A DNA stretch of 53,702 nucleotides, from NCBI GenBank assembly GCA_964583105.1, contig CAZOUV010000005.1, positions 1-53,702 of the forward strand, given 5' to 3'. The notes beneath the pieces were generated by a model. It saw nothing but the letters and a program-made list of their open reading frames with translations, was not told the origin of the DNA and ran no database searches. The DNA is from an uncultured Gammaproteobacteria bacterium. Lineage in GTDB: Bacteria; Patescibacteriota; Microgenomatia; UBA8517. Positions 7,775-23,014 of this stretch are shown here, in pieces (position 1 is the first letter of the stretch; the number at the start of each line of letters is the position of its first letter). The position numbers were made by a program, and so were the translations under genes.

Positions 7775-9451
7775 TTATTTATGTTCTATGTTAAAGAAGG
7801 CAAAACCTGTTTGGGGAATTGAGAGATATCCCGGAGCTCTTAAATTATATGCCTGTTTAAACTCGTCTCCGGTTAAATAAATGTTTCCGTTAACAACAAC
7901 CTGATTAGTAACCCCGTTTCCTTGGGTTACGTAAATAGAGGAAATTGAAGAAACCCCGCCTTTTGCCTTCATCTCTTCGTAAGAATAGGGGCTTCCTCCC
8001 CAACAAGATGTGGTTATGGGAGTAATTCGAGAATCGTTGCCTCCCTTAAGGGTAATTGCAGCATTAACTATGTCTGTTAGTTCTTCGTTTGTCAGCCAAG
8101 GATTTCCCCTGGCACAGGAATTTCCGCTTCTGTTTTTATACCAAGACTTATAAACCCAAGGGCTTCCTCCGATTTTTTCGTATGTTTTATCCAAAAAGCT
8201 TCCTCCCCCTCCGCCGTCAGTTGTGTCCCACCCCATTGTAGTAATATAACCTCCGGTAGTTGAAGAATAATAGGTAACAACGTCTTCCAAAATCTGTCCA
8301 CGAGTTGCCTGAACAGCTTGTTTCCAAGAATCCGGAGGATTATCTGCTTTACTTTTTCTGAAAACCTGACAGCTTTCGGTTGTACAAATTGTCTTACCTT
8401 CAATTTTATATCTGTAAGCATATGTTCTTGCGGCAATTGCCTGTGCCTTTAAAGCTTCCATATGCCAAGAAGATGGCATTTCGGCAATTCCCATAAGATA
8501 ATAGTCTTCGAAATTTAAGTTCCCGTAACCGGAAACGCTTATTGTTCCTCCCGTATCTTTTCCTACAGGTTCTTTTCCGTAGTAAGCCTTAAGTATCTGG
8601 TTTGCATTTTGACCGTTTTGAGCTCTTCCGCGGGCTCCGTACTGACTCATTCCTTTTCTGTGGGTATATCCTCCAAAAGAAAATATGGCATAACTTCCTG
8701 AAGGAGCAGCTTCTCGAAAACCTTTAATGGATGCATTGTAGTCATCCGCAAGTTCGCTATCTCCCACCGATGCTATGAAACTTCCTGATTTTGCAGCCAA
8801 TATTTCCTGCTGCTTACTGGAAAGAACTGAAAGAAAACTTTCTACTTTATCAACCTCTCCTTGCAAAAACTTGGTTTGTTCATTAACCGTTTTTTGCAAA
8901 GAAGCCAAAGATATTTTGTTTTTTTCTAAAGCTTCCCTTTCTTCTTTTAAAGAAATAATGTCCTGGGAATATTTTTCTATGGTTTTTCTGTCTTCCTCGG
9001 CAACTACTTCCCTGAGCTTAATTCTACGAAATACTTCGGAAGCATCGGACGCGGAAAGAAGAGAAAGAACGGGATCATATAGACGGGAATCTATATACTG
9101 ACTTCTTGCTTTTTCGTCTAGTACCTCTTGAGCAAAAGCCAGATCTTCTTCACCATTTTTAATTTCTTTTTCTTTGTTTTTAAGCTCATTGGAAAGAGAA
9201 ATTATTCTTTTGTTCAAGCTATCCAGTTGTTTTTTAAGATTTGCAAGATCTTGTTTATTTTTTTCCTGAGCCGGAGCATATGCGGAGGCAATACGGGGAA
9301 GAATTACATTTAAACATTCATCCATTTCTCCCGTAGAAAGCTCACTTGCGGATTTATTTAAGCAGTCTGATTCGGATACAGCAAAAGTAAGATTATAGAC
9401 ACCAAAAAAAAGAATGCTAAAAAACAAAAAAATAAATAACTTTAATTTCAT
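7775..9451 (-). CDS. SpoIID/LytB-domain peptidoglycan-remodelling protein with N-terminal signal peptide and long coiled coil
   Basis: 558 aa. Signal/TM MKLKLFIFLFFSILFFGVY, then a coiled coil (LANLKKQLDSLNKRIISLSNELKNKEKE...). SpoIID core reads GMSQYGARGRA...EMPSSWHMEALKAQAIAARTYA...YYSSTTGGYI. Confidence 0.85.
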   Translation of the reverse strand: MKLKLFIFLFFSILFFGVYNLTFAVSESDCLNKSASELSTGEMDECLNVILPRIASAYAPAQEKNKQDLANLKKQLDSLNKRIISLSNELKNKEKEIKNGEEDLAFAQEVLDEKARSQYIDSRLYDPVLSLLSASDASEVFRRIKLREVVAEEDRKTIEKYSQDIISLKEEREALEKNKISLASLQKTVNEQTKFLQGEVDKVESFLSVLSSKQQEILAAKSGSFIASVGDSELADDYNASIKGFREAAPSGSYAIFSFGGYTHRKGMSQYGARGRAQNGQNANQILKAYYGKEPVGKDTGGTISVSGYGNLNFEDYYLMGIAEMPSSWHMEALKAQAIAARTYAYRYKIEGKTICTTESCQVFRKSKADNPPDSWKQAVQATRGQILEDVVTYYSSTTGGYITTMGWDTTDGGGGGSFLDKTYEKIGGSPWVYKSWYKNRSGNSCARGNPWLTNEELTDIVNAAITLKGGNDSRITPITTSCWGGSPYSYEEMKAKGGVSSISSIYVTQGNGVTNQVVVNGNIYLTGDEFKQAYNLRAPGYLSIPQTGFAFFNIEHK

Positions 9452-9494
9452 TTGTCTTTTTTCATTATACAGGTTGTGATAAACTCAAGAAGGA

Positions 9495-10028
9495 ATGAAA
9501 AAAATAATTGCAATCTTTTTGCTGTCAATTTGTTTTTTATTATCTTCTTCAAAAAATACTTCAGCAACTTGTGACAGAAAACAACCGGGTTCTTGTTCTA
9601 AAATTGTTTGTCCCGTTAGCAATGGTAACTTTTGTTGCGACACACAAAGTGAATGTGATGCTAAAAAAACTACGATTGGGACATCAGATAGTGGTATTAG
9701 TGAAGATCTTTGGTGCGACCCAATCTTCGGAATTGGTACAAAGGTAAATACGGCAATAGGGTGTGTTCCGGTTCTTGACAATAATTTATTTATGTCTTTT
9801 TTGCTTAAATGGGCTGTAGGAATTGGAGGAGGAATTGCTTTTCTTTTGATTGTCTATGCGGGATTCATGATAATGACCTCAGCAGGAAACCCCGAAAGAC
9901 TTAAGGCCGGCCAAGAACTTTTAACATCTGCAATATCGGGGCTTATTCTTTTGATTTTTTCGGTAGTTATTCTAAAAATTATTGGGGTTGATATACTTGG
10001 ACTAGATAAATTCGGTTTTAATCAATAA
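9495..10028 (+). CDS. pilin-like paralog P1: Sec signal + Cys-rich module fused to a VirB2/TrbC-like two-TM core
   Basis: Signal peptide MKKIIAIFLLSICFLLSSSKNTSA. Eight Cys follow in the next ~70 aa (TCDRKQPGSCSKIVCPVSNGNFCCDTQSEC...WC...GC). The C-terminal core is TM1-MTSAGNPERLKAGQELLTSAISGL-TM2, shared with the seven downstream ORFs. Confidence 0.75.
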   Translation: MKKIIAIFLLSICFLLSSSKNTSATCDRKQPGSCSKIVCPVSNGNFCCDTQSECDAKKTTIGTSDSGISEDLWCDPIFGIGTKVNTAIGCVPVLDNNLFMSFLLKWAVGIGGGIAFLLIVYAGFMIMTSAGNPERLKAGQELLTSAISGLILLIFSVVILKIIGVDILGLDKFGFNQ

Positions 10029-10029
10029 T

Positions 10030-10359
10030 ATGCTTGAAGAAATTCAACATGGAGCTTTTCCCAAAGCGAAAATAGCTACTAATACGAGTATTGGTAAAAT
10101 TATTTCGGACATTCTTCCTTATGTCTTTACAATTACCGGAATTTTGCTTCTTTTGTATCTTATCTTGGGAGGACTTCAATTAATGCTCGCTGCTGGAGAG
10201 CCTAAAAAGGTGGAAGGTGCACGGGGTAAAATTACAAACGCATTAATAGGTTTTGTAATTGTATTTCTTGCCTATTGGATTACTCAACTTATTGGTAAAA
10301 TATTTGATATTCAAATAATAAACAATATATTTAGTATTACAGGAGGCTTACCAAATTAA
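10030..10359 (+). CDS. pilin-like paralog P2 (VirB2/TrbC-like)
   Basis: 109 aa. TM1-MLAAGEPKKVEGARGKITNALIGF-TM2. Starts 1 nt after the P1 stop. Confidence 0.75.
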   Translation: MLEEIQHGAFPKAKIATNTSIGKIISDILPYVFTITGILLLLYLILGGLQLMLAAGEPKKVEGARGKITNALIGFVIVFLAYWITQLIGKIFDIQIINNIFSITGGLPN

Positions 10360-10668
10360 ATGAAATATCTTACCCAAGTTCCCATAAATACAACTTTCGG
10401 ATCACGTTTCGGAAATGGTAAAACAATTGGTGATATGGTTACTCTTGGGCTTGATATTGCCTTTGTTGTTGCGGGTTTAATACTTCTGGTTACTTTTATA
10501 ATCGGAGGTGTTGGTCTTATTGCGGGAGCGGGACAAAATAACCCCGAGAGACTTGAAAAAGGAAAGAAAGCACTAACTTCAACACTTATTGGTTTTGTTG
10601 TTGTATTTACTGCATATTGGATAGTAAAATTGATAGGACAAATAACCGGTTTGGAATTACTTGAATGA
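10360..10668 (+). CDS. pilin-like paralog P3 (VirB2/TrbC-like)
   Basis: 102 aa. TM1-IAGAGQNNPERLEKGKKALTSTLIGF-TM2. The tail AYWIVKLIGQIT closely matches P2 AYWITQLIGKIF. Starts immediately after the P2 stop. Confidence 0.75.
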   Translation: MKYLTQVPINTTFGSRFGNGKTIGDMVTLGLDIAFVVAGLILLVTFIIGGVGLIAGAGQNNPERLEKGKKALTSTLIGFVVVFTAYWIVKLIGQITGLELLE

Positions 10669-11021
10669 ATAAATTATTGACCGACGCCAGCAAAATATTT
10701 GGAGAAGTAAAACCACCCCCAGCAATATCTAAATATTCCTCAGATCCTGGTCTGGCTATTGGTACTATCCTTGACATAGTTTTAAAATTACTGGTTGTTG
10801 GTGCAGGGATTTACACTCTTATCAACTTGGTTTTGGCTGGTTATAGTTTTTTGTCTGCAGGTGAAGACCCTAAAAAAATTGCAGGGGCTTGGAGTAGAAT
10901 TTGGCAAAGTGCACTTGGACTTGCTGTTACCGCCGGATCTTTCACCTTGGCTGCAATATTTGGTAAGTTAATTTTTGGAAATTGGAATTTTATTCTTAAA
11001 CCAGTTATCCCAACATTATGA
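10665..11021 (+). CDS. pilin-like paralog P4 (VirB2/TrbC-like)
   Basis: 118 aa. TM1-FLSAGEDPKKIAGAWSRIWQSALGL-TM2. ATGA overlap with P3. Confidence 0.7.
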   Translation: MNKLLTDASKIFGEVKPPPAISKYSSDPGLAIGTILDIVLKLLVVGAGIYTLINLVLAGYSFLSAGEDPKKIAGAWSRIWQSALGLAVTAGSFTLAAIFGKLIFGNWNFILKPVIPTL

Positions 11022-11386
11022 AATTATCATCTATAGACATCTCTCCACCTGGCGGATTCAAAGGATTTGGCTATTACGGGTTGGAAACCACCACACCGAA
11101 TAATGCAGCTATAATTTTTGGTGGGTTTATATCTCGAATTATTGGAGTTATTACCATTGTTGCTTTCATTTGGTTCTTGTTTGTTTTTATTACAGGAGCT
11201 ATCTCAATTATTGGAGCAGGAAGCGATAAACAAGCTATGGAAACGGCAAAAAAGAAAATAACAGCTGGATTGATTGGTCTAGTTGTAACAGTTGCTGCAA
11301 TATTTGTCGTACGTTTAATTGGTAGCTTTTTGGGAATTGAAAATTTCTTAAGTCCAGCTAAGTTAATTGAACAAATAACAAAATAA
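11018..11386 (+). CDS. pilin-like paralog P5 (VirB2/TrbC-like)
   Basis: 122 aa. TM1-IIGAGSDKQAMETAKKKITAGLIGL-TM2. ATGA overlap with P4. Confidence 0.75.
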   Translation: MKLSSIDISPPGGFKGFGYYGLETTTPNNAAIIFGGFISRIIGVITIVAFIWFLFVFITGAISIIGAGSDKQAMETAKKKITAGLIGLVVTVAAIFVVRLIGSFLGIENFLSPAKLIEQITK

Positions 11387-11387
11387 C

Positions 11388-11756
11388 ATGAATCCCGATG
11401 AACGCATAGCGCCTGACATTAATGCTTTCGATATTAAAAATCCAGCTATTGGAAAATTAAACGATTTGGCCGGAGAAAGCGGGATTGGCTTTTTTCAAGT
11501 TTTTCTTCCTAAGCTATTAACCTTGGCTTTAATAATTGGCTCTCTTGTGTTCTTTTTTATTATGATAATAGGGGCGATTCAATGGATTTCTTCGGGAGGA
11601 GATAAAACTGCGCTAGAAGAAGCTAAAAAGAAAATTACAAACGCAATAATTGGTCTTTTTATTCTTTTCTCAGTATTTGCAATTCTAAAACTAATCGAAA
11701 ATTTCTTTGGTATTTCAATATTAACCCTTGACATAGGTAGCTTACTAATACGATAA
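11388..11756 (+). CDS. pilin-like paralog P6 (VirB2/TrbC-like)
   Basis: 122 aa. TM1-WISSGGDKTALEEAKKKITNAIIGL-TM2. Starts 1 nt after the P5 stop. Confidence 0.75.
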   Translation: MNPDERIAPDINAFDIKNPAIGKLNDLAGESGIGFFQVFLPKLLTLALIIGSLVFFFIMIIGAIQWISSGGDKTALEEAKKKITNAIIGLFILFSVFAILKLIENFFGISILTLDIGSLLIR

Positions 11757-11766
11757 TTGGTAAAGT

Positions 11767-12105
11767 ATGAAAGATTTGTTGGCACAAGCAGGTGAAATTG
11801 TAGATTTAAACGCTTCAGGTAATTTTAAACCCTTGGGTGGTATTACAATTACATCAATCGTTTCTGCATTAGTTAAGTTTTCATTAGTAATAGCTGCTAT
11901 TGTTTTCTTTTTTATTCTGGTTATTGGAGGAATTAGGTGGATTGCATCGGGAGGAGATAAAGCACACACAGAAGCTGCCAGAAATCAAATTACCGCAGCA
12001 TTAGTTGGGCTTGTAATTGTTTTTGCCGCTTGGGCAATAATTGCACTTATTAAAGTTTTCTTCGGAGTAGATATCTTGGTTCTCGATATCCCTTCAGCCG
12101 TTTAA
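11767..12105 (+). CDS. pilin-like paralog P7 (VirB2/TrbC-like)
   Basis: 112 aa. TM1-WIASGGDKAHTEAARNQITAALVGL-TM2. Shares identical DNA strings with P6 (TTCTTTTTTATT and TCGGGAGGAGATAAA). Confidence 0.75.
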   Translation: MKDLLAQAGEIVDLNASGNFKPLGGITITSIVSALVKFSLVIAAIVFFFILVIGGIRWIASGGDKAHTEAARNQITAALVGLVIVFAAWAIIALIKVFFGVDILVLDIPSAV

Positions 12106-12157
12106 CTTTAAACAGACACTCCTTGCCCTTATTTCTATGTTAGTTTAAAATCTAATT

Positions 12158-12460
12158 ATGGATTGTCCTGTTGATGTTAGCGGCATTGCTACATTGCAAA
12201 ATTTGGAGTGTGTATTTAAAAATGTAGTAGCTGCCGTATTGGGAATAGCGGGGATTGTTTTTTTCATTCTTCTTCTTTCTTCGGGTCTTAAATTTATTAC
12301 ATCAGGTGGGGATCCCAAAGCATTAGAAGGAGCAAAAAAAACTTTAACTTATGCAGTTAGTGGATTTATTTTAATAATTCTTTCATATTTAATTCTTCTT
12401 CTTATTTCAGAACTTACAGGGGTCGAGGTCGGCATCTTCCAAATAACAAATTCCCTCTAG
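12158..12460 (+). CDS. pilin-like paralog P8 (VirB2/TrbC-like)
   Basis: 100 aa. TM1-FITSGGDPKALEGAKKTLTYAVSGF-TM2. Two Cys in the N-terminal leader. Confidence 0.75.
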   Translation: MDCPVDVSGIATLQNLECVFKNVVAAVLGIAGIVFFILLLSSGLKFITSGGDPKALEGAKKTLTYAVSGFILIILSYLILLLISELTGVEVGIFQITNSL

Positions 12461-12482
12461 GGTTAACTGATATAATAAATTT

Positions 12483-14948
12483 ATGAAAAAGTTTGTATTT
12501 GCCCCGATCTTTTTTCTGCTTGTTTTTATTTTTCCTTATTTTTCCACAGTAAAAGCGCAGATTTGTAAAAAGGGTGAGTGCCATTATTTAAGACCATATC
12601 CTACGGAACCCATCAATGTCACTAGCGGAGAACTTGCAAATTTTTGCGGAAGCGATTTAACAATAACCCAGACAGCAACTGTAAAATATAATCCTGATGA
12701 TCCTAATTGCACTTTCAACGGAACAAATAAAATAACTTGCTCATATCAAAAACCGATTGACGATAGGGTAGTTATTAATCTTGAAAACGCAAATCTTCCC
12801 ATAATGGGAAATACTGAAGAGGTTAAAAATACAGAAAACGATGAAGATATAATAACGGATGCAGAAAAGGTAAACGAGTATGTAAGCTGGTATTTAAGCG
12901 GGGTTCCATTTAAAAAAGAATACGGTTTTCCGAATCCAACAGAATCCGATCTTGATACCGAAGAGCAAAAAAACCTTCTTAATTATTCCGGCCCCATAGC
13001 CAAGCTTCTTCCTCAGGAAATTCAACTTGCAAAAAGAATAGAAACCATCGAACGTGTTTCCGGAAAAAACTTGAATGATGATAATATTACTCCCCCAAAA
13101 GACAGAAATAATCAAACAGTTGTTTGTACAAAGACAGAACTTGATACACTACTTCTTCCCGCCACACTTGAGTGGGCTCTTGAAAAACTGGGTATCGGAA
13201 GAGAACATTCTGTCCCCTGTCCTGAAGGTGAAAAAATAAAACTGAGCGAATGGGAAAAAGATCTTTCTGTTATTAATAATTTAATTAGTGCCGAACTTTC
13301 TGTTATGAAATTATTTGCCAAGATTATTCCTTCTGTCCCCGGAGACATAATTCAAAAGGTAATCTCTGAGAATAAACCCTGGAACAGTAGGTTGCCACCC
13401 CTCTCATGGGGAAAAGATTCTGATGGAAACCCATTTGATGATTTAACTTACAAAAAAGCATACAACGAATGGCGTGGTAAATTATGCATAATTATTCCTC
13501 TTCCAAGAATGCTTGTTTGTGTGGAAAACATCTTGATACCAAATAAGTGGGCGGATCTTTTTTCGTATGTCCCACTTTCTTCGACCGAAGATTCAAAAGG
13601 GCAAGTAAATATTACCAGTGCAAGTTTCTCAACAGAAAAACCATCAGATCTTTTCTTTTCCCACATGGAAAAATCGGACGAACTGGCATCACTTCTTCGG
13701 GAAACTTATTTATATGAAGGTGCGGGCGGAGATATGTTGGGAGAAGTCAGTTATTCCGGAATAGAAACTCCAAAATCATGCAGTACCGTTGAAGTTAGAT
13801 CAAACAAGGGGGATAACCTTTTTGCAACCGAAATTGTGGGCAAACTTTCATATAACGCAAGTTTTACCTGCGATTATGTTGTTTCCGAAAATGCTCACGA
13901 TCCACTTTCGTGTAATATCTGTTCTGCAAAAAAATGTGTTTTCAATTCTCTAGCAACAAGTAACTGTAATGTTGAATACAATGAATGCGAATCAGATTTG
14001 GAATGTGCAGATTTTGTGGGTGGAGTAGTTAATAACACCTGCACAAAAACTTTTCAAATCCCCCTTTCCACAAGATCATATACACCCAAGGTTGAAAATA
14101 TTTGGTCAAAGCTGGTGGCCGGTCCCACATCAATATTTAAAAGAATATATCCCAAAGTAGGAACACAAATAGGAATCATTAAAGACATGGCCGGATCAAC
14201 TTTGGTAGATATTTCGGTGGGGGGTACTAAAACAACAGGGGAACTTAAATTTCCCCACTTGGGAGGAATCTCGGAATATTTCTTAAAAGGAATTCAAACA
14301 GCTCTTAGACCAAAGGGTTATGGGGAAACAATATCCTTTGGTGATGTTGAGGGTGGTGGTGAAGATGGGGATATTTGTGCCATCGCCGACAAATATAAAA
14401 TTCCCTGCTGTATGCTTAAAGGAATTATTGAAGTTGAAACCGGAAACAATCCAATATTTATTGGCAGTGGTATATGCAATAGGTCAAATAAAGCATTTGC
14501 CTGTTGCAATGGAAATTACTGTGGGCCAGCAAACATCGGATGTAATCAATATGATGCGTGGGACGGTGGAGACGGTTTAGATCTTTGTGATTACACCGAT
14601 TCTGCAGAACTTTTAGCAAGGGCGCTTCTTTTTAAACTTTGTCAGGCTGACCAAAAGTGTTTAAGTGGTTGGGCAACTGATGGAGATTATATTCTTGAAA
14701 ACTATTCGATTGAGGACGGTAGTTACACGGCAGCCGGATACTTCTATGGTGTAACAAACGGCTGTTTTCCTACAGCCTGTTCACAGTTTAGGTGGGGTGC
14801 GGGGAAAACTTATTGCGATGCTGTAGAGTATTACTGTGATAACGGAGGTATTCTCACATCCGGTCCGGATGTTACATTTTGTGAAGAATGTAATTTTAAG
14901 GAAATGAATGACGCAGGAATGCCAATTACCTGTTCTTTATATGAATAA
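12483..14948 (+). CDS. large secreted Cys-rich protein with C-terminal SLT-like (VirB1-like lytic transglycosylase) region
   Basis: 821 aa. Signal peptide MKKFVFAPIFFLLVFIFPYFSTVKA. About 36 Cys by hand count. From ~nt 14370, ICAIADKYKIPCCMLKGIIEVETGNNPIFIGSG fits the SLT pattern (ia.kY.iP..ll.aii.vES.fNP.a.s), with E-T at the catalytic E-S position. Confidence 0.7.
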   Translation: MKKFVFAPIFFLLVFIFPYFSTVKAQICKKGECHYLRPYPTEPINVTSGELANFCGSDLTITQTATVKYNPDDPNCTFNGTNKITCSYQKPIDDRVVINLENANLPIMGNTEEVKNTENDEDIITDAEKVNEYVSWYLSGVPFKKEYGFPNPTESDLDTEEQKNLLNYSGPIAKLLPQEIQLAKRIETIERVSGKNLNDDNITPPKDRNNQTVVCTKTELDTLLLPATLEWALEKLGIGREHSVPCPEGEKIKLSEWEKDLSVINNLISAELSVMKLFAKIIPSVPGDIIQKVISENKPWNSRLPPLSWGKDSDGNPFDDLTYKKAYNEWRGKLCIIIPLPRMLVCVENILIPNKWADLFSYVPLSSTEDSKGQVNITSASFSTEKPSDLFFSHMEKSDELASLLRETYLYEGAGGDMLGEVSYSGIETPKSCSTVEVRSNKGDNLFATEIVGKLSYNASFTCDYVVSENAHDPLSCNICSAKKCVFNSLATSNCNVEYNECESDLECADFVGGVVNNTCTKTFQIPLSTRSYTPKVENIWSKLVAGPTSIFKRIYPKVGTQIGIIKDMAGSTLVDISVGGTKTTGELKFPHLGGISEYFLKGIQTALRPKGYGETISFGDVEGGGEDGDICAIADKYKIPCCMLKGIIEVETGNNPIFIGSGICNRSNKAFACCNGNYCGPANIGCNQYDAWDGGDGLDLCDYTDSAELLARALLFKLCQADQKCLSGWATDGDYILENYSIEDGSYTAAGYFYGVTNGCFPTACSQFRWGAGKTYCDAVEYYCDNGGILTSGPDVTFCEECNFKEMNDAGMPITCSLYE

Positions 14949-14986
14949 GGCTAACATTTAAACAATTATTTTGATAATATAAAACC

Positions 14987-16693
14987 ATGAAGAAACTGCT
15001 CAAAAAAATAGTTCTTGCTTTCTTTTCTTTTTTCTTTTTAATATCCAGTTTTTTAACATTTCTTGCTCCTTCTGCTAAGGCACAGAGTCCTTGGTATTCA
15101 CAAAGCCCCACCGAGTGGTACATAAAAGTATATGATAAAGAAACTTCTCCTTCTAATGAAATTTTTGGGGAACGTTACACAGCAGCACAAGTTCAATGGA
15201 TTGTGTATAGTTTACTTTCAAACACCATTAATGCTGTTGTCGGAGAAAACATACCATTTGTTGTTTGTGTACTGAAAGCCACGGATGCAACATTTATTTT
15301 AACGGGCTGTCAAGGAAAACTCGAAGAACTGTTAACTGAAATTAGAGGAATTATTGATAAATTTGTTGACACTCGAAATTCAACCAATAATATTTGGTCA
15401 AACGCTTTAGGATTAGAAGGAAGGTCTCTCTCTGGTATAGCTTATTTAAAAAACACTTTTCATAACGTACGTTTCGCTTCAGAGGCCAAGGCTCAAACAG
15501 GATTTGGATTTAGCTCACTTGGTGCAGTACAAAAGTTGTGGAGGGGTACTAGAAATATTGCCTACCTACTCCTGGTAGTCGTGGCTGTCGTTTTTTCGTT
15601 TATGATCATGTTTAAGGTAAAACTTAATCCACAAACAGTTATTACCGTTCAATCAGCCTTGCCCAAAATTATCGCTGCTATGATTCTGGTCACTTTTTCT
15701 TACGCAATTGCAGGATTTGCGATAGATATTATGTACATAGTCATCGGCCTTATTTCTTCTCTTTTCGCAACAGCTGGGATAGCTATGTCAGGCAAGCTTG
15801 GTGTGTCGTTAACTTATGCCTTCATTAGTGGCCACACAATATTATTTGAAGGATTTGTTATTCTAGAATACATGCTTATATATGCCATAACTTTTTTTGT
15901 TGTTGCTTTAATAACCCTCGTTACATCACTCATGTCGGCTTCCATATTCGGATCTTTGACCTCTGTTATTATGTTTATTATTTGGGTTTGGATTTTGATT
16001 CTTGTAATCTGGTATACAGTAAAGGTTCCTTTTGTTTTAATCAAAACTTTAGTGCAAATATATTTGTCAATTATTGTCGCACCAATTCAAATTATGCTTG
16101 GATCACTAGTTCCACAAATGGGTTTTGGCGTGTGGTTTAAAAATTTGATGGCACATGTTCTTGTTTTCCCTGTAATCGGGGCTCTTTTTTATCTTGCGTT
16201 TTTCTTTCTGATTTATGCCGTAGTTACTGCACTTGATGTGGCTATTATTCACAATTGGGCTGTGGAGCTTGTTCAAGTCTTTGGCGGATTTAATCTTGGT
16301 CTTTTAGGGGCTTCACTTTGGTCTCCCCCCCTATTAGCCCCAGGAAAGGTCCTAACCCCAATAATTTTTATGGCAATAAGCTTTGGCGCAATTGTTTTAA
16401 TACCAAAAGTTCCAAATATGTTAAAATCAATCTTTATGAGAGAAAAATTCGATTATGGTTCAGCAATGAATGAAGCAACTGGTATAGCTAAAGGTGCCTG
16501 GGGCATGACTGGCGCACCGTTTGTAAATCAGGCTCGAGAAGGATGGAGTTTGACTACTGCCCCCAACATATGGGCAGGATTGCGAGACTTTACGTCTCGT
16601 GGAGGAACGGGAAATAGGGTATCGAGGTTTTTCGAAGAACGCCGAAGGGTAGCCACAGAGACGGGTAGAAAGGCTGGTGTTATTACCCCATAA
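14987..16693 (+). CDS. polytopic membrane protein, VirB6/TrbL-like
   Basis: 568 aa. Signal peptide ...FLAPSAKAQSPW, a ~170-aa extracytoplasmic region, then at least 7 hydrophobic helices and a basic cytoplasmic tail. Assignment rests on topology and context between the pilin genes and VirB4, not on a motif. Confidence 0.6.
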   Translation: MKKLLKKIVLAFFSFFFLISSFLTFLAPSAKAQSPWYSQSPTEWYIKVYDKETSPSNEIFGERYTAAQVQWIVYSLLSNTINAVVGENIPFVVCVLKATDATFILTGCQGKLEELLTEIRGIIDKFVDTRNSTNNIWSNALGLEGRSLSGIAYLKNTFHNVRFASEAKAQTGFGFSSLGAVQKLWRGTRNIAYLLLVVVAVVFSFMIMFKVKLNPQTVITVQSALPKIIAAMILVTFSYAIAGFAIDIMYIVIGLISSLFATAGIAMSGKLGVSLTYAFISGHTILFEGFVILEYMLIYAITFFVVALITLVTSLMSASIFGSLTSVIMFIIWVWILILVIWYTVKVPFVLIKTLVQIYLSIIVAPIQIMLGSLVPQMGFGVWFKNLMAHVLVFPVIGALFYLAFFFLIYAVVTALDVAIIHNWAVELVQVFGGFNLGLLGASLWSPPLLAPGKVLTPIIFMAISFGAIVLIPKVPNMLKSIFMREKFDYGSAMNEATGIAKGAWGMTGAPFVNQAREGWSLTTAPNIWAGLRDFTSRGGTGNRVSRFFEERRRVATETGRKAGVITP

Positions 16694-16707
16694 CCCTAAA
16701 AACAATT

Positions 16708-19452: not shown

Positions 19453-20529
19453 ATGGAAAGTCATCCTATACCACAACAAATTTCCTCATATCAATTTCGA
19501 CTTGTTGGTGATATGACCCTTAAGCAGTTTTTTCAGATTGCGGGGGGTGCTTTGATTTCAATTATTATCTACTCCCTTCCTTTAATGGGGATTATTAAGT
19601 GGCCCTTGGTTGTCTTTTTTGCACTTCTGGGAATTGCCCTTGCCTTTTTACCTCTTGAGGAAAGACCGTTGGAGCGCTGGATCATTGCCTTTTTTAAATC
19701 TGTTTATTCTCCTTCTTTGTTTTTTTGGAAAAAAACCAAAAACGAATTTAATTACTATCAAGATGAGGCAACTGCCCCTACCGAAAAAATTGTATATCCC
19801 GGGGGAGAGGCAAAATTGCAGGAATATCTAAAATCTTCTTCTGGTGGTAACCTGGCCGGAAGTTTGGAAAAACTTGAAAATTCTTTTCTTTCGGGCCTAT
19901 CCGGTATTTTTTCCAGCGTAATTCCCACCATGAAAGTAACTTCTACTACTATTCCCCAAGTTGGTATCCAAGAAGGTCCTCCTAAACCGGTTGCTGTACC
20001 TAATGAAATTCCTATTAAAATTCCCGTTGCTACAAATATACCCAAACTAGTTGTTGAAGAAACATCCTTTAAAGAAAATGTTACTCCACTTATTTCAACC
20101 ACTGAAGTTACACCAACCTCATTGGGCCAAAATTTAGTTGCTCAAAAACAAGCACAATTCTCAATTGATGCTGCTCCACCAAGCCCGCCAACTTCTCCAA
20201 ATACATTAACAGGTCAGGTTGTTGATCAGGAAAAACATATTGTGGAAGGTGCAATTATGGAAATTAGAGACAGTTCCGGAAGACCGGTAAGAGCTCTTAA
20301 AAGCAATAAACTCGGACACTTCATGGTTGTAACACCATTAATGAGCGGAAAGTATGAAATCATTACCGAAAAGGAAGGTTTCAATTTCGACCCCATTTCT
20401 TTTGAGGCCGAAGGGGAAATTATCCCCCCGATTGCGGTTTTTGGTAATAAAATTCCGGGGGGTGTTTCTTCTCAGGTTTTACAAACTGGTATAAATCAAG
20501 AAACTGTAGTTAAAACAAATCAATTATGA
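19453..20529 (+). CDS. PrgI/VirB3-like membrane protein fused to a Pro-rich linker and a CarboxypepD_reg-like beta-sandwich
   Basis: The N-terminus PIPQQISSYQFRLVGDMTLKQFFQIAGGALISIIIY plus a second TM is the PrgI-family signature. C-terminus LTGQVVDQEKHIVEGAIMEIRDSSGRPVRALKSNKLGHFMVVTPLMSGKYEIITEKEGFNF resembles a carboxypeptidase-regulatory-like domain. Confidence 0.65.
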   Translation: MESHPIPQQISSYQFRLVGDMTLKQFFQIAGGALISIIIYSLPLMGIIKWPLVVFFALLGIALAFLPLEERPLERWIIAFFKSVYSPSLFFWKKTKNEFNYYQDEATAPTEKIVYPGGEAKLQEYLKSSSGGNLAGSLEKLENSFLSGLSGIFSSVIPTMKVTSTTIPQVGIQEGPPKPVAVPNEIPIKIPVATNIPKLVVEETSFKENVTPLISTTEVTPTSLGQNLVAQKQAQFSIDAAPPSPPTSPNTLTGQVVDQEKHIVEGAIMEIRDSSGRPVRALKSNKLGHFMVVTPLMSGKYEIITEKEGFNFDPISFEAEGEIIPPIAVFGNKIPGGVSSQVLQTGINQETVVKTNQL

Positions 20530-21209
20530 AAAAGATTGTTAAAATTCCCAAAATTCCGTTTTTAAGCATACCTGATGTGCCGCTTACGGCTTCTTCGCAA
20601 ACACATCTTCCTATTGCTGATATTTGTGATGATATTGTTCTTTATAAAGACGGGGGGGCTGCAGTTGTTTTGGAATCAACTTCTCTTAATTTTAGTCTTC
20701 TTTCGGAAAAGGAACAGGAAGCTGTAATTGCAGCTTACGCGGCACTTCTTAATTCCCTTACTTTTTCAATTCAATTCATGGTCAGAAGCCAAAAAAAGGA
20801 CATTTCCAGTTACATGAATTATCTTGATGAATCTGCTAAAAAAATTGCAAACCCCGGCCTTTACCGGTTGATGCAATCTTACAGAAAATTCATTCTGGAA
20901 TCCGTCAAAAAAAGGAATGTTTTAGGGAAAAAGTTTTTTGTTGTTCTTCCTTTTAGTCCACTGGAGTTGGGAGTTACCAAATCGGTTCTTTCCATAACCA
21001 AAGGCAAAGGCCCTCTTCCTTACCCCAAATCTTACGTAATTAAAAAAGCCAAGGTTATTCTTTACCCAAGAAGGGACCATCTTATAAGGCAAATGGGAAG
21101 ATTAAGTATCAAATTAAGACAGCTTTCAACTGAAAATCTGGTTTCTCTGTACCACGAAGTCTACAATCCCGTTAAGCCCGAACCTAGAAAAAAGGAGGAA
21201 AATTTATGA
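20526..21209 (+). CDS. VirB4 N-terminal-domain-like protein (separate ORF)
   Basis: 227 aa. HLPIADICDDIVLYKDGGAAVVLESTSLNFSLLSEKEQEAVIAAYAALLNSLTFSIQFMV resembles the N-terminal region of Gram-positive VirB4/TraE-type ATPases. ATGA overlaps at both ends. Confidence 0.55.
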   Translation: MKKIVKIPKIPFLSIPDVPLTASSQTHLPIADICDDIVLYKDGGAAVVLESTSLNFSLLSEKEQEAVIAAYAALLNSLTFSIQFMVRSQKKDISSYMNYLDESAKKIANPGLYRLMQSYRKFILESVKKRNVLGKKFFVVLPFSPLELGVTKSVLSITKGKGPLPYPKSYVIKKAKVILYPRRDHLIRQMGRLSIKLRQLSTENLVSLYHEVYNPVKPEPRKKEENL

Positions 21210-23014
21210 ATCAAACAAATCAAATAAAAGGTGTTATAAATAACCAACAAGCTCCCGTGCAGGTTGCTGCAAAACCGGTTATTCCGAGTGTTCCTTTTGC
21301 CCTGAAGCAAAAGGAACTAAGGGTTGATGACATCATTGCACCCGAAAAAATAGAGGTTGATTTTGATTATTTCAAAATAAACGATGTCTATTTTAGAACC
21401 ATATTTGTAGCAGGATACCCGAGGTTTGTAACTCCCGGGTGGCTTGAGCCGATTGTTAATTTCGACAGTTCTTTGGACATTTCCTTTTACATCTATCCCG
21501 TTGACGGAAAATCCGTTCTTGACGATCTAAGAAGAAAGATCGCAGAAATGGAAGCGGAAATTTCAACAGACCTTCAAAGAGGAAAGATACTTGATCCTTC
21601 AACCGAAGCAAAACTGGAAGATGCAAGAAGCCTTCAGGAACAACTTGTAAAAGGCGCTGAAAGGTTTTTTGAATTCGGGTTTTACATCACAATTCCTGCA
21701 GCCAACCTTGAAGACCTTAACCATACAACAAAACAGATAGAGTCAACACTTGGTTCTTTAATGATTGTTGCCAAACACGCCCTTCTTGATCAGGATATGG
21801 GCTTTTTAACCACGGTTCCTTTCGGTTTCGACAGATTAAATATTACAAGAAACATGGACACAACATCCCTTTCCACAACATTCCCTTTAACTTCTGCTGA
21901 ACTATCAAGCGACCATGGAATTCTTTATGGAATTAATTCCAAAAACGAATCTTTCATTATCTTTGATAGATTTTCTTTGGAGAATCCGAACATGACGATC
22001 TTTGCTACATCGGGTGCCGGAAAAAGCTTTTTTATCAAACTGGAGGCTCTTCGAAGTTTGATGTTAGGAACAGAAATTATGATTATTGATCCCGAAACAG
22101 AATATAAACCGCTAGCAAAAGCTGTCGGTGGAGAATATATTTCTTTTGGATATAACTCTCCCTCCAAAATAAATCCTTTTGACTTATCCCAAGCTGTTGA
22201 AGAGGGAGAAAACCAATTGGGACTTAAGATTCTTTCTTTACATTCTCTATTTAAAGTAATCATGGGTCAAATTACACCTACACAGGAAGCTTTGCTTGAT
22301 AGAGCATTAGTTACCTGCTACCGAGCCAAGGGAATAACTCAAGATCCCGCAACACAAACCAAAGAACCTCCTTTAATGGAAGATCTTTATAAAACCTTAA
22401 TCGGTATGGAATCGCCCGAAGCCTTGGATTTGGCCGCAAGAATAGAAAAGTTTGTCAGAGGAAGTTTCATGGGAATATTCGACCAGCAAACAAACGTTAA
22501 TTTAAAAAATCCTTTTACTGTTTTTTCTGTCAGAGACTTACAAGATGCATTAAGACCAATCGCTATGTTTATAATTCTTGATTACATTTGGACAAGAGTT
22601 AAAAAAGACCTCAGGAAACGTCTCTTAATCATCGAGGAGGCCTGGCACATGATGAAATACCCCGATACCGCTCAGTTTCTTTGGTCCGTCGTTAAAAGGT
22701 CAAGAAAGTATTTCCTGGGGTTAACAACAATTACCCAAGATGTTGAAGACTTTCTTTCCCAGGATATAGGAAAAGCAATTGTAACCAATTCCGCCCTACA
22801 ACTTCTTTTAAAACAATCCCCTGCGGCAATTGATAAAGTGGGAGAAGTTTTCTATCTTTCTCAGGGAGAAAAGAATTTACTTCTTGCCGCGAATGTTGGA
22901 GAAGGAATATTTTTTGCTGGACCACATCATGCACCAATTAGAATTACAGCTTCGCAAGATGAATATCAGCTCATAACATCAAAGCCGCAGGATATTGTTG
23001 CTAAACAGCCATGA
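21206..23014 (+). CDS. virB4: VirB4-type T4SS ATPase
   Basis: 602 aa. Walker A IFATSGAGKSFFIK (nt ~22004-22030) and Walker B RLLIIEEAWHMM. The upstream part YFRTIFVAGYPRFVTPGWLEPIVNFDSSLDISFYIYP is typical of the VirB4/TrbE/CagE family. Confidence 0.85.
   Translation: MNQTNQIKGVINNQQAPVQVAAKPVIPSVPFALKQKELRVDDIIAPEKIEVDFDYFKINDVYFRTIFVAGYPRFVTPGWLEPIVNFDSSLDISFYIYPVDGKSVLDDLRRKIAEMEAEISTDLQRGKILDPSTEAKLEDARSLQEQLVKGAERFFEFGFYITIPAANLEDLNHTTKQIESTLGSLMIVAKHALLDQDMGFLTTVPFGFDRLNITRNMDTTSLSTTFPLTSAELSSDHGILYGINSKNESFIIFDRFSLENPNMTIFATSGAGKSFFIKLEALRSLMLGTEIMIIDPETEYKPLAKAVGGEYISFGYNSPSKINPFDLSQAVEEGENQLGLKILSLHSLFKVIMGQITPTQEALLDRALVTCYRAKGITQDPATQTKEPPLMEDLYKTLIGMESPEALDLAARIEKFVRGSFMGIFDQQTNVNLKNPFTVFSVRDLQDALRPIAMFIILDYIWTRVKKDLRKRLLIIEEAWHMMKYPDTAQFLWSVVKRSRKYFLGLTTITQDVEDFLSQDIGKAIVTNSALQLLLKQSPAAIDKVGEVFYLSQGEKNLLLAANVGEGIFFAGPHHAPIRITASQDEYQLITSKPQDIVAKQP

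What the first reader, a model, noticed from the sequence alone, without database searches (positions are those of the whole stretch)
9495..12460. Eight tandem VirB2/TrbC-like pilin paralogs in 3 kb
Seen: eight consecutive ORFs of 100-177 aa share one architecture. Each has a variable hydrophilic leader, TM1, a short loop, then TM2. The loops align by eye: P1 MTSAGNPERLKAGQELLTSAISGL; P2 MLAAGEPKKVEGARGKITNALIGF; P3 IAGAGQNNPERLEKGKKALTSTLIGF; P4 FLSAGEDPKKIAGAWSRIWQSALGL; P5 IIGAGSDKQAMETAKKKITAGLIGL; P6 WISSGGDKTALEEAKKKITNAIIGL; P7 WIASGGDKAHTEAARNQITAALVGL; P8 FITSGGDPKALEGAKKTLTYAVSGF. The first seven are packed tightly: abutting, overlapping by 4 nt (ATGA at 10665 and 11018), or separated by 1-10 nt. 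P8 follows after a 52-nt gap. P6 and P7 share identical DNA strings (TCGGGAGGAGATAAA, TTCTTTTTTATT), and P2 and P3 share the tail AYWI..LIG.I, so duplication occurred in steps. Established: classical T4SS encode a single VirB2 pilin. Inference: the array could build a heteropolymeric or modular filament, provide major and minor pilins, or offer a repertoire for different host surfaces. The leaders diverge while the cores are conserved, which fits diversifying selection on the exposed parts.
Basis: partly seen in the sequence, partly recalled or inferred. Interest (0 to 1): 0.8.

Follow-up and report, generated by a model that had tools for sequence, protein, structure and literature searches.

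The report
Conserved eight-gene T4SS pilin array
Eight adjacent genes do encode related two-helix "pilin" proteins of a type IV secretion system in an ultrasmall Patescibacteria (Woesebacteria-like) bacterium, but such arrays were already described in 2023-2025; what this analysis adds is that the same eight are kept one-for-one across related species, which points to a mixed-subunit structure rather than a set of interchangeable variants.

Summary
Eight same-strand ORFs (9495-12460) share a leader, TM1, short loop and TM2 architecture, with the stated spacings and loop sequences. Six reach the Pfam T4SS_pilin (PF18895) threshold. P5 is sub-threshold and P4 gets no Pfam hit, but all eight are recognised by a leave-one-family-out HMM.

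The locus is chromosomal and close to oriC. It belongs to a monoderm-type T4SS: PrgI/VirB3-like, VirB4-like, a putative VirB6-like protein, and cell-wall hydrolases. No relaxase or coupling protein was found.

This kind of array is already published. Wang 2023 reported an essential pilin series in a Saccharibacterium. Quinonero-Coronel 2025 reported 441 arrays of 2-11 pilins, especially in Microgenomatia. So this is a new member of a known kind.

New points from this analysis:
- The eight genes are collinear 1:1 orthologues in 22 related loci (172/176 positions).
- The cores are under strong purifying selection. The leaders are relaxed, not positively selected.
- Conserved promoter-like elements precede P1, P7 and P8.
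- P1 alone carries a signal peptide and a variable Cys-rich ectodomain.
- Fused multi-hairpin polypeptides exist elsewhere.

Together these favour a fixed hetero-oligomeric pilus or conduit with major and minor subunits. They argue against a host-range or antigenic repertoire. Homology to classical VirB2/TrbC is weak at best.

The parts
9477..9485 (+). Extended -10-like element TGATAAACT, 9 nt upstream of the P1 ATG. Putative promoter of the P1-P6 unit, giving a near-leaderless mRNA.
   Evidence: TAnAnT lies 4-16 nt before the P1 start in 16/20 orthologous loci, and the extended TGnTAnAnT in 10/20 (background 6% and 0.4%). Promoter function is inferred, not shown.
9495..10028 (+). P1 (177 aa): signal peptide, a Cys-rich ectodomain of about 80 aa with 8 Cys, and the pilin hairpin. 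The core is almost invariant across species. This is the ectodomain-bearing subunit.
   Evidence: PF18895 29.0 bits. Hydrophobic residues 1-22 plus two TM segments. About 70 consecutive core residues are identical in 5 orthologues, while the N-domain cannot be aligned. The P1 position always carries a signal peptide and 2-40 Cys in related loci.
10030..10359 (+). P2 (109 aa), pilin hairpin subunit.
   Evidence: PF18895 45.4 bits. AF2 predicts two long helices, 20-53 and 58-103. Orthologues are 35-72% identical.
10360..10668 (+). P3 (102 aa), pilin hairpin subunit. Abuts P2 with a 0 nt gap.
   Evidence: PF18895 40.9 bits. Gaps.
10665..11021 (+). P4 (118 aa), the most divergent pilin hairpin subunit. 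ATGA overlap with P3.
   Evidence: No Pfam hit. 43.2 bits (E 1.6e-9) against an HMM built without any P4 family member. NF045849 E 0.0098. Orthologues are 46-65% identical.
11018..11386 (+). P5 (122 aa), pilin hairpin subunit. ATGA overlap with P4.
   Evidence: PF18895 23.5 bits, below the gathering score. Leave-one-out HMM 74 bits.
11388..11756 (+). P6 (122 aa), pilin hairpin subunit. Its last codons carry the -35 and -10 of the P7 promoter-like element.
   Evidence: PF18895 33.0 bits. for the codon overlap.
11728..11757 (+). Consensus sigma-70-like element TTGACA-18 nt-GATAAT ending 9 nt before the P7 ATG. Putative internal promoter giving a near-leaderless mRNA.
   Evidence: 11/12 match to consensus. 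TTGACA-18-NATAAT is present in 20/20 loci (17/20 within the scan range; background for 10/12 or better is 0.4%). The Asp codon is GAC in 17/17 loci although GAC accounts for 36% of Asp codons. The motif sits in intergenic DNA in L015, L024 and L027.
11767..12105 (+). P7 (112 aa), the best-conserved pilin. Candidate major subunit.
   Evidence: PF18895 32.5 bits. Orthologue identity averages 67%, and TM1, loop and TM2 are 78, 87 and 82% identical. It has its own consensus promoter-like element. The 'major pilin' role is an inference.
12123..12151 (+). Promoter-like TTGCCC-17 nt-TAAAAT ending 6 nt before the P8 ATG.
   Evidence: A -10-like hexamer lies 4-16 nt before the start in 16/20 loci (background 6%), and a TTGC[CT]C -35-like motif recurs.
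12158..12460 (+). P8 (100 aa), pilin hairpin subunit. Followed after 22 nt by the 821-aa gene.
   Evidence: PF18895 38.7 bits.
12483..14948 (+). Secreted 821-aa protein with 36 Cys. Conserved directly downstream of the array. Function unknown; candidate surface or tip component or wall-active factor.
   Evidence: Signal-peptide-like N-terminus and 36 Cys. No Pfam hit at E<=10 and no PDB sequence hit. Syntenic homologues of 754-795 aa in L001 and L003-L006.
14987..16693 (+). 568-aa polytopic membrane protein (signal peptide plus about 8 TM segments). Putative VirB6-like assembly platform.
   Evidence: TM count. No Pfam or PDB sequence hit. More than 800 unnamed Patescibacteria homologues. AF2 pLDDT 78. 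The only coherent Foldseek matches are R388 TrwI/VirB6 chains: 7o3v_F (prob 0.98, E 0.08, TM 0.40), 7o3v_J and 8rtd_H. This evidence is weak.
19453..20529 (+). PrgI-family (VirB3-like) protein, 358 aa.
   Evidence: PF12666 26.5 bits against a gathering score of 27, E 9e-6.
21206..23014 (+). VirB4-like ATPase, 602 aa.
   Evidence: PF19044 TraG P-loop 108.6 bits, AAA_10 36 bits.
23011..25221 (+). Membrane-anchored M23 peptidase, 736 aa. Candidate cell-wall hydrolase of the system.
   Evidence: PF01551 52.5 bits.
7775..9451 (-). SpoIID-domain secreted protein, divergently transcribed from the array. Conserved neighbour and candidate wall-remodelling factor.
   Evidence: PF08486 72 bits. Same position in L001 and L003-L005.

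Best explanation
The eight genes are the pilin module of the chromosomal, oriC-proximal, monoderm-type (MPF-FATA-like) type IV secretion system of a Woesebacteria-like member of Patescibacteria (class Microgenomatia).

Each gene encodes a small helical-hairpin membrane protein of the T4SS_pilin family. The N-terminus is outside, the short basic loop faces the cytoplasm, and the C-terminus is outside.

The eight are not interchangeable variants. They are eight old, individually conserved subunit types that are made together and most likely co-assemble into one hetero-oligomeric extracellular pilus or conduit. Assembly would occur on the VirB4 / PrgI(VirB3) / VirB6-like platform, and the structure would pass through the wall with help from the neighbouring SpoIID and M23 hydrolases to reach the host cell.

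P1-P6 form one tightly packed, probably translationally coupled unit. P7 and P8 have their own conserved promoter-like elements. P7 is the best conserved and has a consensus promoter, so it is the best candidate for the major subunit. P1 has a signal peptide, a hypervariable Cys-rich ectodomain and an invariant core, so it is a candidate displayed, adhesive or initiating subunit.

Shown: family membership, T4SS context, orthology, selection regime, conserved DNA motifs. Inferred: co-assembly, the roles of individual subunits, promoter activity, and formation of an extracellular filament.
For: Family: PF18895 hits, leave-one-out HMM, hairpin model.

Context: PrgI-like, VirB4-like, M23 and SpoIID genes are present, dnaN and dnaA lie within about 15 kb, and no relaxase or coupling protein is in the window. 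The 568-aa neighbour resembles R388 VirB6 in fold, weakly.

Taxon: P2 homologues and P1-related loci are Woesebacteria, Gottesmanbacteria, Roizmanbacteria and other Patescibacteria.

Non-redundancy: 19 non-redundant loci carry a contiguous 8-gene array and 3 carry a 2+6 split. In 172/176 cases a gene's best window match is the paralogue at the same ordinal position. Orthologues are 33-83% identical, against 20-53% for paralogues. Core dN/dS is 0.04-0.12.

Co-expression: overlaps and gaps of 0-1 nt from P1 to P6 are conserved across loci. Promoter-like motifs occur only before P1, P7 and P8.

Topology: the P1 signal peptide and Cys-rich N-domain must be extracytoplasmic.

Co-assembly: uninterrupted ORFs with 2-3 hairpins occur in held genomes. 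Polypeptides with 6, 8, 11 and 17 hairpins occur in the 1.84-billion-protein library, and one fuses P1-, P2- and P3-like units in array order.

Literature: a series of T4SS pilins is essential in Southlakia epibionticum (PMC10633639). Arrays of 2-11 pilins are common in Microgenomatia, and the T4SS lies near dnaA (PMC12102498). A pilus or conduit is proposed in PMC12857230.
Against: No filament made of these proteins has been observed in any Patescibacterium. Sequence or profile similarity to structurally characterised VirB2, TrbC or TraA pilins is absent or sub-threshold. P2-P8 lack the long cleavable signal peptide typical of VirB2/TrbC propilins. The charge bias between loop and tails is weak. 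The array lies 7-9 kb from virB4, separated by three uncharacterised genes, one of them on the other strand. Promoter assignments rest on E. coli-type consensus and conservation only. Very long poly-hairpin fusions (34 TM helices) are hard to reconcile with extraction of subunits into a thin pilus. No hetero-oligomer modelling could be run.
Confidence: 0.55

Rival explanations
1. Membrane-resident hetero-oligomer. The hairpins never form an extended pilus. They build a ring- or channel-like assembly in the cytoplasmic membrane, or a short stalk within the wall, as part of the T4SS translocon. 'Pilin' would then be a misnomer.
For: Monoderm T4SSs normally lack pili (PMC10633639, PMC12102498). 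There is no significant similarity to VirB2 pilins of known structure. Fused polypeptides with up to 17 hairpins exist, and these would be awkward to extract into a filament. P2-P8 lack cleavable signal peptides.
Against: The family scores near threshold on the TrbC/VirB2 Pfam model in some members. P1-type subunits display large extracellular Cys-rich domains of up to about 380 aa, which suits a surface-exposed structure. N-out/C-out fusions are geometrically compatible with neighbouring subunits in a helical filament. Structure-based annotation by others calls them pilins (PMC10633639, PMC12857230).
Confidence: 0.22
2. Variant repertoire. The paralogues are alternative major pilins used one at a time or in changing mixtures to match different host strains or to evade host or phage recognition. 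This is analogous to the tandem virB2/trwL copies of Anaplasma and Bartonella, and is the reading suggested in PMC12102498 and by the first reader.
For: Leaders and tails, presumably exposed, are far less conserved than cores: 22-45% against 47-87%. Between two near-identical strains the differences cluster in patches that include the P1 ectodomain and P6. The P1 ectodomain is hypervariable, and a Cys-rich module appears on P2 instead in other loci.
Against: Copy number is fixed at eight, with collinear 1:1 orthologues in 22 loci. There are no recent duplicates, since P6/P7 synonymous sites are saturated. Leader dN/dS is below 1. P1-P6 overlap or abut and so must be co-transcribed. The paralogues differ systematically in length, in conservation and in having a signal peptide. 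The pilin series is essential in S. epibionticum (PMC10633639).
Confidence: 0.12
3. Unrelated small hydrophobic ORFs, or decaying duplicates, that resemble each other only through transmembrane composition.
For: Helical hairpins are low-information folds. Foldseek finds only non-specific helical matches. P4 has no Pfam hit.
Against: The leave-one-family-out HMM recognises all eight and no other window ORF. All eight have conserved orthologues under purifying selection in many genomes.
Confidence: 0.02

Closest known systems
VirB2-like pilin arrays of Patescibacteria T4SS: six essential pilins in Southlakia epibionticum ML1, the 'Sec-secreted array' of TM7x, and 441 arrays of 2-11 genes in 383 assemblies (PMC10633639, PMC12102498, PMC12857230)
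   Same: Same Pfam family (PF18895). Same tandem arrangement. Same within-array divergence: the literature reports a mean of 25% and a maximum of 54%, and here the figures are 18-31% in the multiple alignment, mean 32% and maximum 53% in local alignments. Same monoderm-type T4SS without a relaxase, and the same position near dnaA. Reported as especially frequent in Microgenomatia, the class of this window.
   Different: Nothing fundamental. This is a Woesebacteria instance with eight genes. The fixed eight-member collinear orthology, the internal promoter-like elements, the P1 ectodomain subunit and the fused poly-hairpin proteins are not mentioned in the texts I could read.
Classical conjugative or effector T4SS pilins: VirB2 (Ti plasmid), TrbC (RP4), TraA (F); Pfam PF04956
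   Same: Small protein with two hydrophobic helices joined by a short basic loop. Both termini are predicted on the outer side. Encoded in a locus with VirB3-, VirB4- and VirB6-like genes.
   Different: One gene per system in the classical case, against eight here. No window protein reaches PF04956. hhalign probability is below 1% against an Agrobacterium-type VirB2 alignment. P2-P8 have no long cleavable leader. The host is a monoderm. No pilus has been demonstrated.
Tandem virB2/trwL paralogues of Bartonella (Trw) and Anaplasma/Ehrlichia (cited in PMC12102498; PMC3556328)
   Same: Several tandem pilin genes in one T4SS. Exposed parts are variable.
   Different: Those are true PF04956 VirB2 homologues in diderm pathogens of animals, and they are interpreted as antigenic or host-adaptation variants with lineage-specific amplification. 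Here the copies are ancient, fixed in number and orthologous one-for-one across species.
Mycoplasma ICE 'Mbov_0395 family pilin-like conjugal transfer protein' (NCBIfam NF045849)
   Same: All eight window proteins give sub-threshold full-length hits (13-33 bits, best E 3.5e-8). Both are found in wall-less or monoderm T4SSs of the FATA type.
   Different: Below the curated cut-off of 40 bits. The mycoplasma protein is a single-copy gene on a mobile element.
Major and minor pilins of type IV pili and type II secretion pseudopili (analogy only)
   Same: One abundant subunit plus several conserved low-abundance subunits encoded together, some carrying extra domains. A fixed set of non-redundant paralogues.
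   Different: Unrelated fold and machinery: a prepilin-peptidase-processed single N-terminal helix plus a globular head.

Membership tests
Pfam PF18895 T4SS_pilin | Score at or above the gathering threshold (26.6 bits) on the family HMM | tested here: met
   P1 29.0, P2 45.4, P3 40.9, P6 33.0, P7 32.5 and P8 38.7 bits. P5 scores 23.5 bits (E 6e-5, below threshold). P4 has no hit. P4 and P5 are tied to the family by the leave-one-family-out HMM (43 and 74 bits).
Patescibacteria T4SS 'VirB2 array' (as defined in PMC12102498) | Two or more pilin-profile genes in tandem, or separated by one non-pilin gene, in a Patescibacteria genome that encodes VirB4 | tested here: met
   Eight consecutive genes. 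VirB4-like gene at 21206-23014. Closest relatives are Woesebacteria and other Patescibacteria.
Patescibacteria T4SS 'VirB2 array' | High divergence within the array (reported mean about 25%, maximum 54% identity) | tested here: met
   18-31% identity to P1 in the multiple alignment. Local pairwise identity 20-53%, mean 32%.
Patescibacteria MPF-FATA-like T4SS | VirB4 with a PrgI/VirB3-like partner, no relaxase or coupling protein, often near dnaA | tested here: met
   PF19044 108.6 bits and PF12666 26.5 bits. dnaN and dnaA at 26394-29136. No relaxase or T4CP domain in any ORF scanned. Phylogenetic placement of VirB4 was not done.
Pfam PF04956 TrbC/VirB2 pilin | Score at or above the gathering threshold (27.9 bits) on the family HMM | tested here: not met
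   None of the eight window proteins at E<=1. 10 of the 63 alignment members (54 P2 relatives plus the eight window paralogues) at E<=0.01, best 27.1 bits.
Classical VirB2 (Agrobacterium type) | Detectable profile-profile or structure-database similarity to VirB2 | tested here: not met
   hhalign probability 0.4-0.7%. No VirB2, TraA or TrbC chain in the PDB profile search or among the 50 Foldseek matches shown, out of 91 with E<=10. The VirB2 alignment was narrow (55-93% identity), and hairpins carry little fold information, so this is weak negative evidence.
Classical VirB2/TrbC/TraA pilins | Two hydrophobic helices joined by a short polar or basic loop (helical hairpin) | tested here: met
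   Hydropathy. AF2 of P2 predicts helices 20-53 and 58-103 with a 4-residue turn, pLDDT 72.
Classical VirB2/TrbC/TraA pilins | Long N-terminal signal peptide removed by signal peptidase before assembly | tested here: inconclusive
   Only P1 has an N-terminal hydrophobic signal sequence. P2-P8 have hydrophilic leaders of 23-43 aa without one. No cleavage-site predictor was available.
Classical VirB2/TrbC/TraA pilins | Polymerises into an extracellular pilus with bound phospholipid | not testable with these tools
   Requires microscopy or biochemistry.
NCBIfam NF045849 Mbov_0395 pilin-like conjugal transfer protein | Score at or above the curated cut-off (40 bits) | tested here: not met
   All eight hit but score 13-33 bits.
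VirB6 / TrwI family (for the 568-aa neighbour) | Polytopic membrane protein with sequence or fold similarity to VirB6 | tested here: inconclusive
   About 8 TM segments. No Pfam hit. Foldseek finds R388 TrwI/VirB6 at prob 0.98 but E 0.08 and TM 0.22/0.40.

The most novel reading that the evidence does not exclude
The T4SS of Microgenomatia builds an obligately hetero-oligomeric appendage or conduit from a fixed set of eight distinct hairpin subunits. The set comprises one ectodomain-bearing subunit (P1), one or two separately transcribed major subunits (P7, P8) and five stoichiometric adaptor subunits. In some lineages the same set is covalently fused into poly-hairpin polypeptides. Such an architecture has no counterpart among the homopolymeric VirB2 pili of classical T4SSs.
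Probability: 0.35. Interest if true: 0.7.

Novelty: new member of a known kind. Interest (0 to 1): 0.35.

Why it matters
Patescibacteria make up a large share of bacterial diversity and live attached to host cells. In the one species tested, their T4SS and its pilin series are essential, yet the function of the T4SS is unknown (PMC10633639, PMC11665869).

The array in this window does not change that picture, because it is another example of a published phenomenon. The comparative results obtained here do sharpen the question. The published suggestion is that arrays provide versatility towards different hosts. Against that, eight collinear orthologues are kept under purifying selection, they appear to form separate transcription units, and hairpin fusions exist. 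These results argue for a defined multi-subunit structure, and they name specific candidates for experiments: P7 as the major subunit and P1 as the displayed subunit.

Tried and rejected
(1) PDB sequence search with the eight-protein profile returned only designed helical proteins and a GPCR, with no T4SS pilin.

(2) Foldseek of the P2 model against the PDB had a best E of 0.2, found only generic helical hairpins, and showed no VirB2, TraA or TrbC among the 50 matches shown. This search is uninformative for so simple a fold.

(3) hhalign of the pilin alignments against VirB2 of pTiC58, alone and as a 34-sequence alignment, gave probability below 1%. The VirB2 alignment was narrow, so this does not exclude remote homology.

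(4) The generic promoter and terminator scan of 9300-17000 gave counts at the level expected by chance (24 against 24.6, and 10 against 6.4). Only comparison across 20 loci singled out the elements before P1, P7 and P8.

(5) The positive-inside rule was tried for topology. Net charges of leaders, loops and tails differ too little to decide. Topology was inferred from the P1 signal peptide and Cys-rich domain instead.

(6) dN/dS is limited. dS exceeds 1 for all pairs except L004/L005, the alignable leader columns exclude the most variable stretches, and the numbers show no average positive selection but cannot exclude site-specific selection.

(7) Recent gene conversion between P6 and P7 was rejected, because pS is 0.64-0.81.

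(8) Pfam at E<=10 and PDB sequence searches for the 821-aa and 568-aa proteins found nothing. Pfam at E<=10 found nothing for the 872-aa protein and only chance-level hits (E 0.1-0.14) for the 227-aa protein.

(9) The 2026 preprint on 'Pam' pili of CPR bacteria concerns Ig-fold, donor-strand-exchange pilins and is unrelated.

(10) Hetero-oligomer modelling was not possible, because the structure tool folds single chains and accepts no fused constructs.

Full report
**Observation.** The window holds eight consecutive + strand ORFs between 9495 and 12460, of 177, 109, 102, 118, 122, 122, 112 and 100 aa. Each protein has two hydrophobic segments around a short polar loop. P1 alone has an additional N-terminal signal-peptide-like segment followed by a domain of about 80 aa with 8 Cys. 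The DNA strings shared by P6 and P7 exist as described.

**Relatedness.** The similarity is not a compositional artefact. Six of the eight proteins exceed the gathering score of Pfam PF18895 (T4SS_pilin). P5 falls just below it and P4 has no hit. When an HMM is built from orthologues of seven paralogue families and the eighth is left out, each left-out window protein is still recognised (43-98 bits). No other window ORF of 60 aa or more scores. Paralogue identity is 20-53%, mean 32%.

**Context and organism.** Upstream, and divergently transcribed, lies a SpoIID-domain protein. Downstream lie, in order:
- a secreted 821-aa protein with 36 Cys;
- a 568-aa polytopic membrane protein;
- an 872-aa cytoplasmic protein on the other strand;
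- a PrgI-family (VirB3-like) protein;
- a 227-aa protein;
- a VirB4-like ATPase (PF19044, 108.6 bits);
- an M23 peptidase;
- a PEGA protein;
- dnaN, dnaA, rnpA and yidC.

The rest of the window is housekeeping: smpB, tmRNA, tRNAs, a class I aminoacyl-tRNA synthetase, GroEL, TsaD and others. No relaxase or coupling protein was found. GC content is about 36%. Homologues of P2 and loci related to P1 come from Candidatus Woesebacteria, from other Microgenomatia and, more distantly, from other Patescibacteria. This is therefore the chromosomal, origin-proximal T4SS of a Woesebacteria-like organism.

**Is it known?** Yes.
- Wang et al. 2023 (PMC10633639) described an essential T4SS in Southlakia epibionticum. 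[quoted passage not shown]
- Quinonero-Coronel et al. 2025 (PMC12102498) used PF18895 and PF04956 on 3,035 genomes. They reported 441 VirB2 arrays of 2-11 genes in 383 assemblies, especially in Microgenomatia and Saccharimonadia, with 25% mean and 54% maximum identity within an array, and they noted the proximity of the T4SS to dnaA.

The window's array matches these descriptions in every measured respect. It also fails for Bartonella and Anaplasma, as cited in PMC12102498.

**How VirB2-like are they?** Membership of PF18895 is met. Membership of the classical TrbC/VirB2 family is not.
- No window protein hits PF04956 at E<=1.
- A profile of the eight finds no pilin chain in the PDB.
- hhalign against VirB2 of pTiC58 and 33 relatives gives probability below 1%.
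- Foldseek of an AF2 model of P2 finds only generic helical hairpins. The model has pLDDT 72 and helices at 20-53 and 58-103.

The one positive link is that 10 of the 63 members of the P2-centred alignment score on PF04956 at E<=0.01. The best is 27.1 bits against a threshold of 27.9, aligned to the mature two-helix part of the model. All eight proteins also give sub-threshold hits to the mycoplasma ICE pilin-like family NF045849. I conclude that they work like, and may be remotely related to, VirB2-type pilins. Homology is not demonstrated here.

**Comparative analysis: fixed copy number and orthology.** Contigs carrying close homologues of P2 show the same gene order: SpoIID, eight pilin genes, a protein of about 780 aa, one of about 510 aa, one of about 750 aa on the minus strand, then PrgI and VirB4. 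A scan of one genome per GTDB species with the near-invariant P1 core returned 56 loci. Counting with my own HMM shows a contiguous array of exactly eight in 19 non-redundant Woesebacteria-type loci. Three loci (L033, L035, L037) have a 2+6 split. More distant lineages have other numbers, up to 16. In 22 loci, 172 of 176 genes have as their best window match the paralogue at the same ordinal position. Orthologue identity averages 49-67% by position, and P7 and P1 are the best conserved. The eight-fold set therefore predates the radiation of these species and is kept collinear.

**Comparative analysis: selection.** Across 20 loci the leaders are 22-45% identical, against 47-87% for TM1, loop and TM2. 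Pooled Nei-Gojobori estimates give dN/dS of 0.04-0.12 for the cores and 0.1-0.5 for the leaders. The leaders are relaxed but show no average positive selection. There are caveats: dS is saturated for all but one pair, and the unalignable stretches are excluded. P6 and P7, the closest paralogues, are saturated at synonymous sites (pS 0.64-0.81), so there is no sign of recent duplication or conversion.

**Comparative analysis: transcription signals.**
- P7: immediately upstream lies TTGACA-18 nt-GATAAT (11728-11757), ending 9 nt before the ATG. The same TTGACA-18-NATAAT element is present in all 20 loci examined. In 17 loci the -35 overlaps the P6 codons [L/I]-D-I and is always written xTT GAC A, although GAC accounts for only 36% of Asp codons. 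In three loci with longer spacers the motif sits in non-coding DNA. This is constraint at the DNA level.
- P1: preceded by an (extended) -10-like element in 16/20 loci (10/20 for the extended form).
- P8: preceded by a -10-like element in 16/20 loci, with a recurrent TTGC[CT]C -35.
- P2-P6: such elements are at most occasional (1-8 of 20 loci, most often before P2); the genome background is 6% and 0.4%.
- The -10 elements end 6-12 nt before the start codons, which implies leaderless or nearly leaderless mRNAs.

I infer three transcription units: P1-P6 (overlapping or abutting, probably translationally coupled), P7, and P8 with the downstream genes. Promoter activity itself is not shown.

**Comparative analysis: subunit specialisation and fusions.** The P1 position always carries a signal peptide and a Cys-containing ectodomain, whose size ranges from about 50 to about 380 aa (2-40 Cys). 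P2-P8 are almost Cys-free. The P1 hairpin core is nearly invariant over about 70 residues, while its ectodomain cannot be aligned. A 'CCDTQ[SA]EC' module found on P1 in the window is found on P2 in L001. A secreted, disulfide-rich N-domain fixes the topology of the family as N-out, loop-in, C-out.

A profile of the eight proteins against 1.84 billion representative proteins finds 83,520 hits at E<=1e-3 and 16,555 at E<=1e-10. The top hits are single polypeptides with 2-17 hairpin units: 552 aa with 6, 820 aa with 8, 1147 aa with 11, and 1775 aa with 17. Their sequences are continuous, and one fragment fuses P1-, P2- and P3-like units in array order. Uninterrupted ORFs with 2-3 hairpins also occur in genome contigs I hold, from Peregrinibacteria, Saccharibacteria and other lineages. 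By 'Rosetta-stone' reasoning, different hairpins act side by side in one assembly.

**Mechanism proposed.** The eight hairpins are inserted into the membrane and co-assembled into a hetero-oligomeric pilus or conduit directed at the host. Assembly would take place on the VirB4 / VirB3-like / VirB6-like platform. The 568-aa neighbour has no sequence match but resembles R388 TrwI/VirB6 in fold, weakly: prob 0.98, E 0.08. P7, and possibly P8, would be the major subunit. P1 would be a displayed or initiating subunit. P2-P5 and P6 would be stoichiometric minor subunits. The SpoIID and M23 enzymes probably open the wall.

**Alternatives.**
- Membrane-resident ring or channel rather than a filament. 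This is favoured by the very long fusions, the lack of cleavable leaders and the absence of any observed filament.
- Variant repertoire for host range. This is disfavoured by fixed copy number, orthology, co-transcription and purifying selection.
- Chance resemblance. This is excluded.

**Verdict.** The finding is real and correctly recognised as T4SS pilins, but it is an instance of an already published feature of Patescibacteria. It ranks as a new member of a known kind, of moderate-to-low interest by itself. The comparative details above are, as far as I could check in the accessible literature, not reported. They make the hetero-oligomer hypothesis concretely testable.

Noticed in passing
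window 11728-11757 (also 9477-9485 and 12123-12151): A consensus TTGACA-18-GATAAT element is embedded in the last codons of P6, 9 nt before the P7 ATG. It is conserved in 20/20 related loci, including three where it is intergenic, and the overlapping Asp codon is GAC in 17/17. Weaker conserved -10-type elements precede P1 and P8. The spacing implies leaderless mRNAs and three transcription units within the array.
   Followed up: yes
window 9495-9800 (P1 N-domain); L001 9983-10540; P1-position genes in L023, L026, L027, L029, L030, L037: The first pilin always carries a signal peptide and a Cys-rich ectodomain of very variable size and sequence (2-40 Cys) on an almost invariant hairpin core. 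A 'CCDTQ[SA]EC' Cys-rich module sits on P1 in the window but on P2 in L001 and L021, which suggests module shuffling between subunits.
   Followed up: partly
proteins P0314, P0315, P0319, P0323, P0317; L048 10251-10988; L055 7609-8643 and 8650-9699; L057 4775-5545; L058 9722-10411: Single polypeptides contain 2-17 tandem pilin hairpins, for example 820 aa with 8 and 1775 aa with 17. One fragment fuses P1-, P2- and P3-like units in array order. I could not fetch the genomic context of the long ones, so mis-translation or assembly artefacts are not excluded for those. The 2-3-hairpin ORFs are uninterrupted in genome contigs.
   Followed up: partly
window 12483-14948 (+): An 821-aa secreted protein with 36 Cys lies directly after P8 (22-nt gap). 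It is conserved in the same position in related loci (754-795 aa). It has no Pfam hit even at E<=10 and no PDB sequence hit. Its role in the T4SS is unknown.
   Followed up: partly
window 14987-16693 (+): A 568-aa polytopic membrane protein belongs to a large unnamed Patescibacteria family (more than 800 homologues, none with a Pfam domain). The AF2 model's only coherent PDB matches are R388 TrwI/VirB6 chains (weak). This may be the 'missing' VirB6 of Microgenomatia noted in PMC12102498.
   Followed up: partly
window 16708-19326 (-) and 20526-21209 (+): An 872-aa soluble protein on the opposite strand, inside the T4SS locus, has no detectable domain and is conserved in synteny (693-805 aa). 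A 227-aa protein lies between the PrgI-like and VirB4-like genes, and its homologue in L003 carries a weak precomputed TraC-like (PF26593) hit.
   Followed up: no
L004 5601-5800, 7601-7800, 9601-9800, 10801-11000 versus L005: Two otherwise near-identical strains from different metagenomes differ almost only in four short patches: the P1 ectodomain next to TM1, the C-terminal half of P6, and two sites in the 785-aa Cys-rich protein. This could reflect recombination tracts, localised diversification, or strain-mixture assembly artefacts.
   Followed up: partly
L051 4847-16620 (Candidatus Magasanikiibacteriota); L061 2634-9164; L049 6190-11515: My HMM finds arrays of 16, 12 and 10 pilin-like genes in other Patescibacteria lineages. 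The 16-gene case exceeds the 2-11 range reported in PMC12102498. Scores are modest (32-63 bits) and were not checked individually.
   Followed up: no
loci L014-L016, L019, L021-L023, L029-L038 and others: Many TPA metagenome-assembled genomes titled 'uncultured Gammaproteobacteria bacterium' carry this Patescibacteria-specific locus with Woesebacteria-like sequences. The record titles look like mislabelled taxonomy.
   Followed up: no
window 39800-40846 (-): A single 348-aa ORF combines a Sua5/YciO/YrdC (TsaC) domain and a TsaE domain, next to tsaD. This is a fused t6A-synthesis protein.
   Followed up: no
window 2298-2726 and 2992-3351; 1226-1406; 47766-47840: smpB is followed by a full-length tmRNA (127 bits). 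There are two adjacent tRNA-Ser genes and a tRNA-Cys. This is ordinary chromosomal context and confirms that the locus is not on a mobile element.
   Followed up: no
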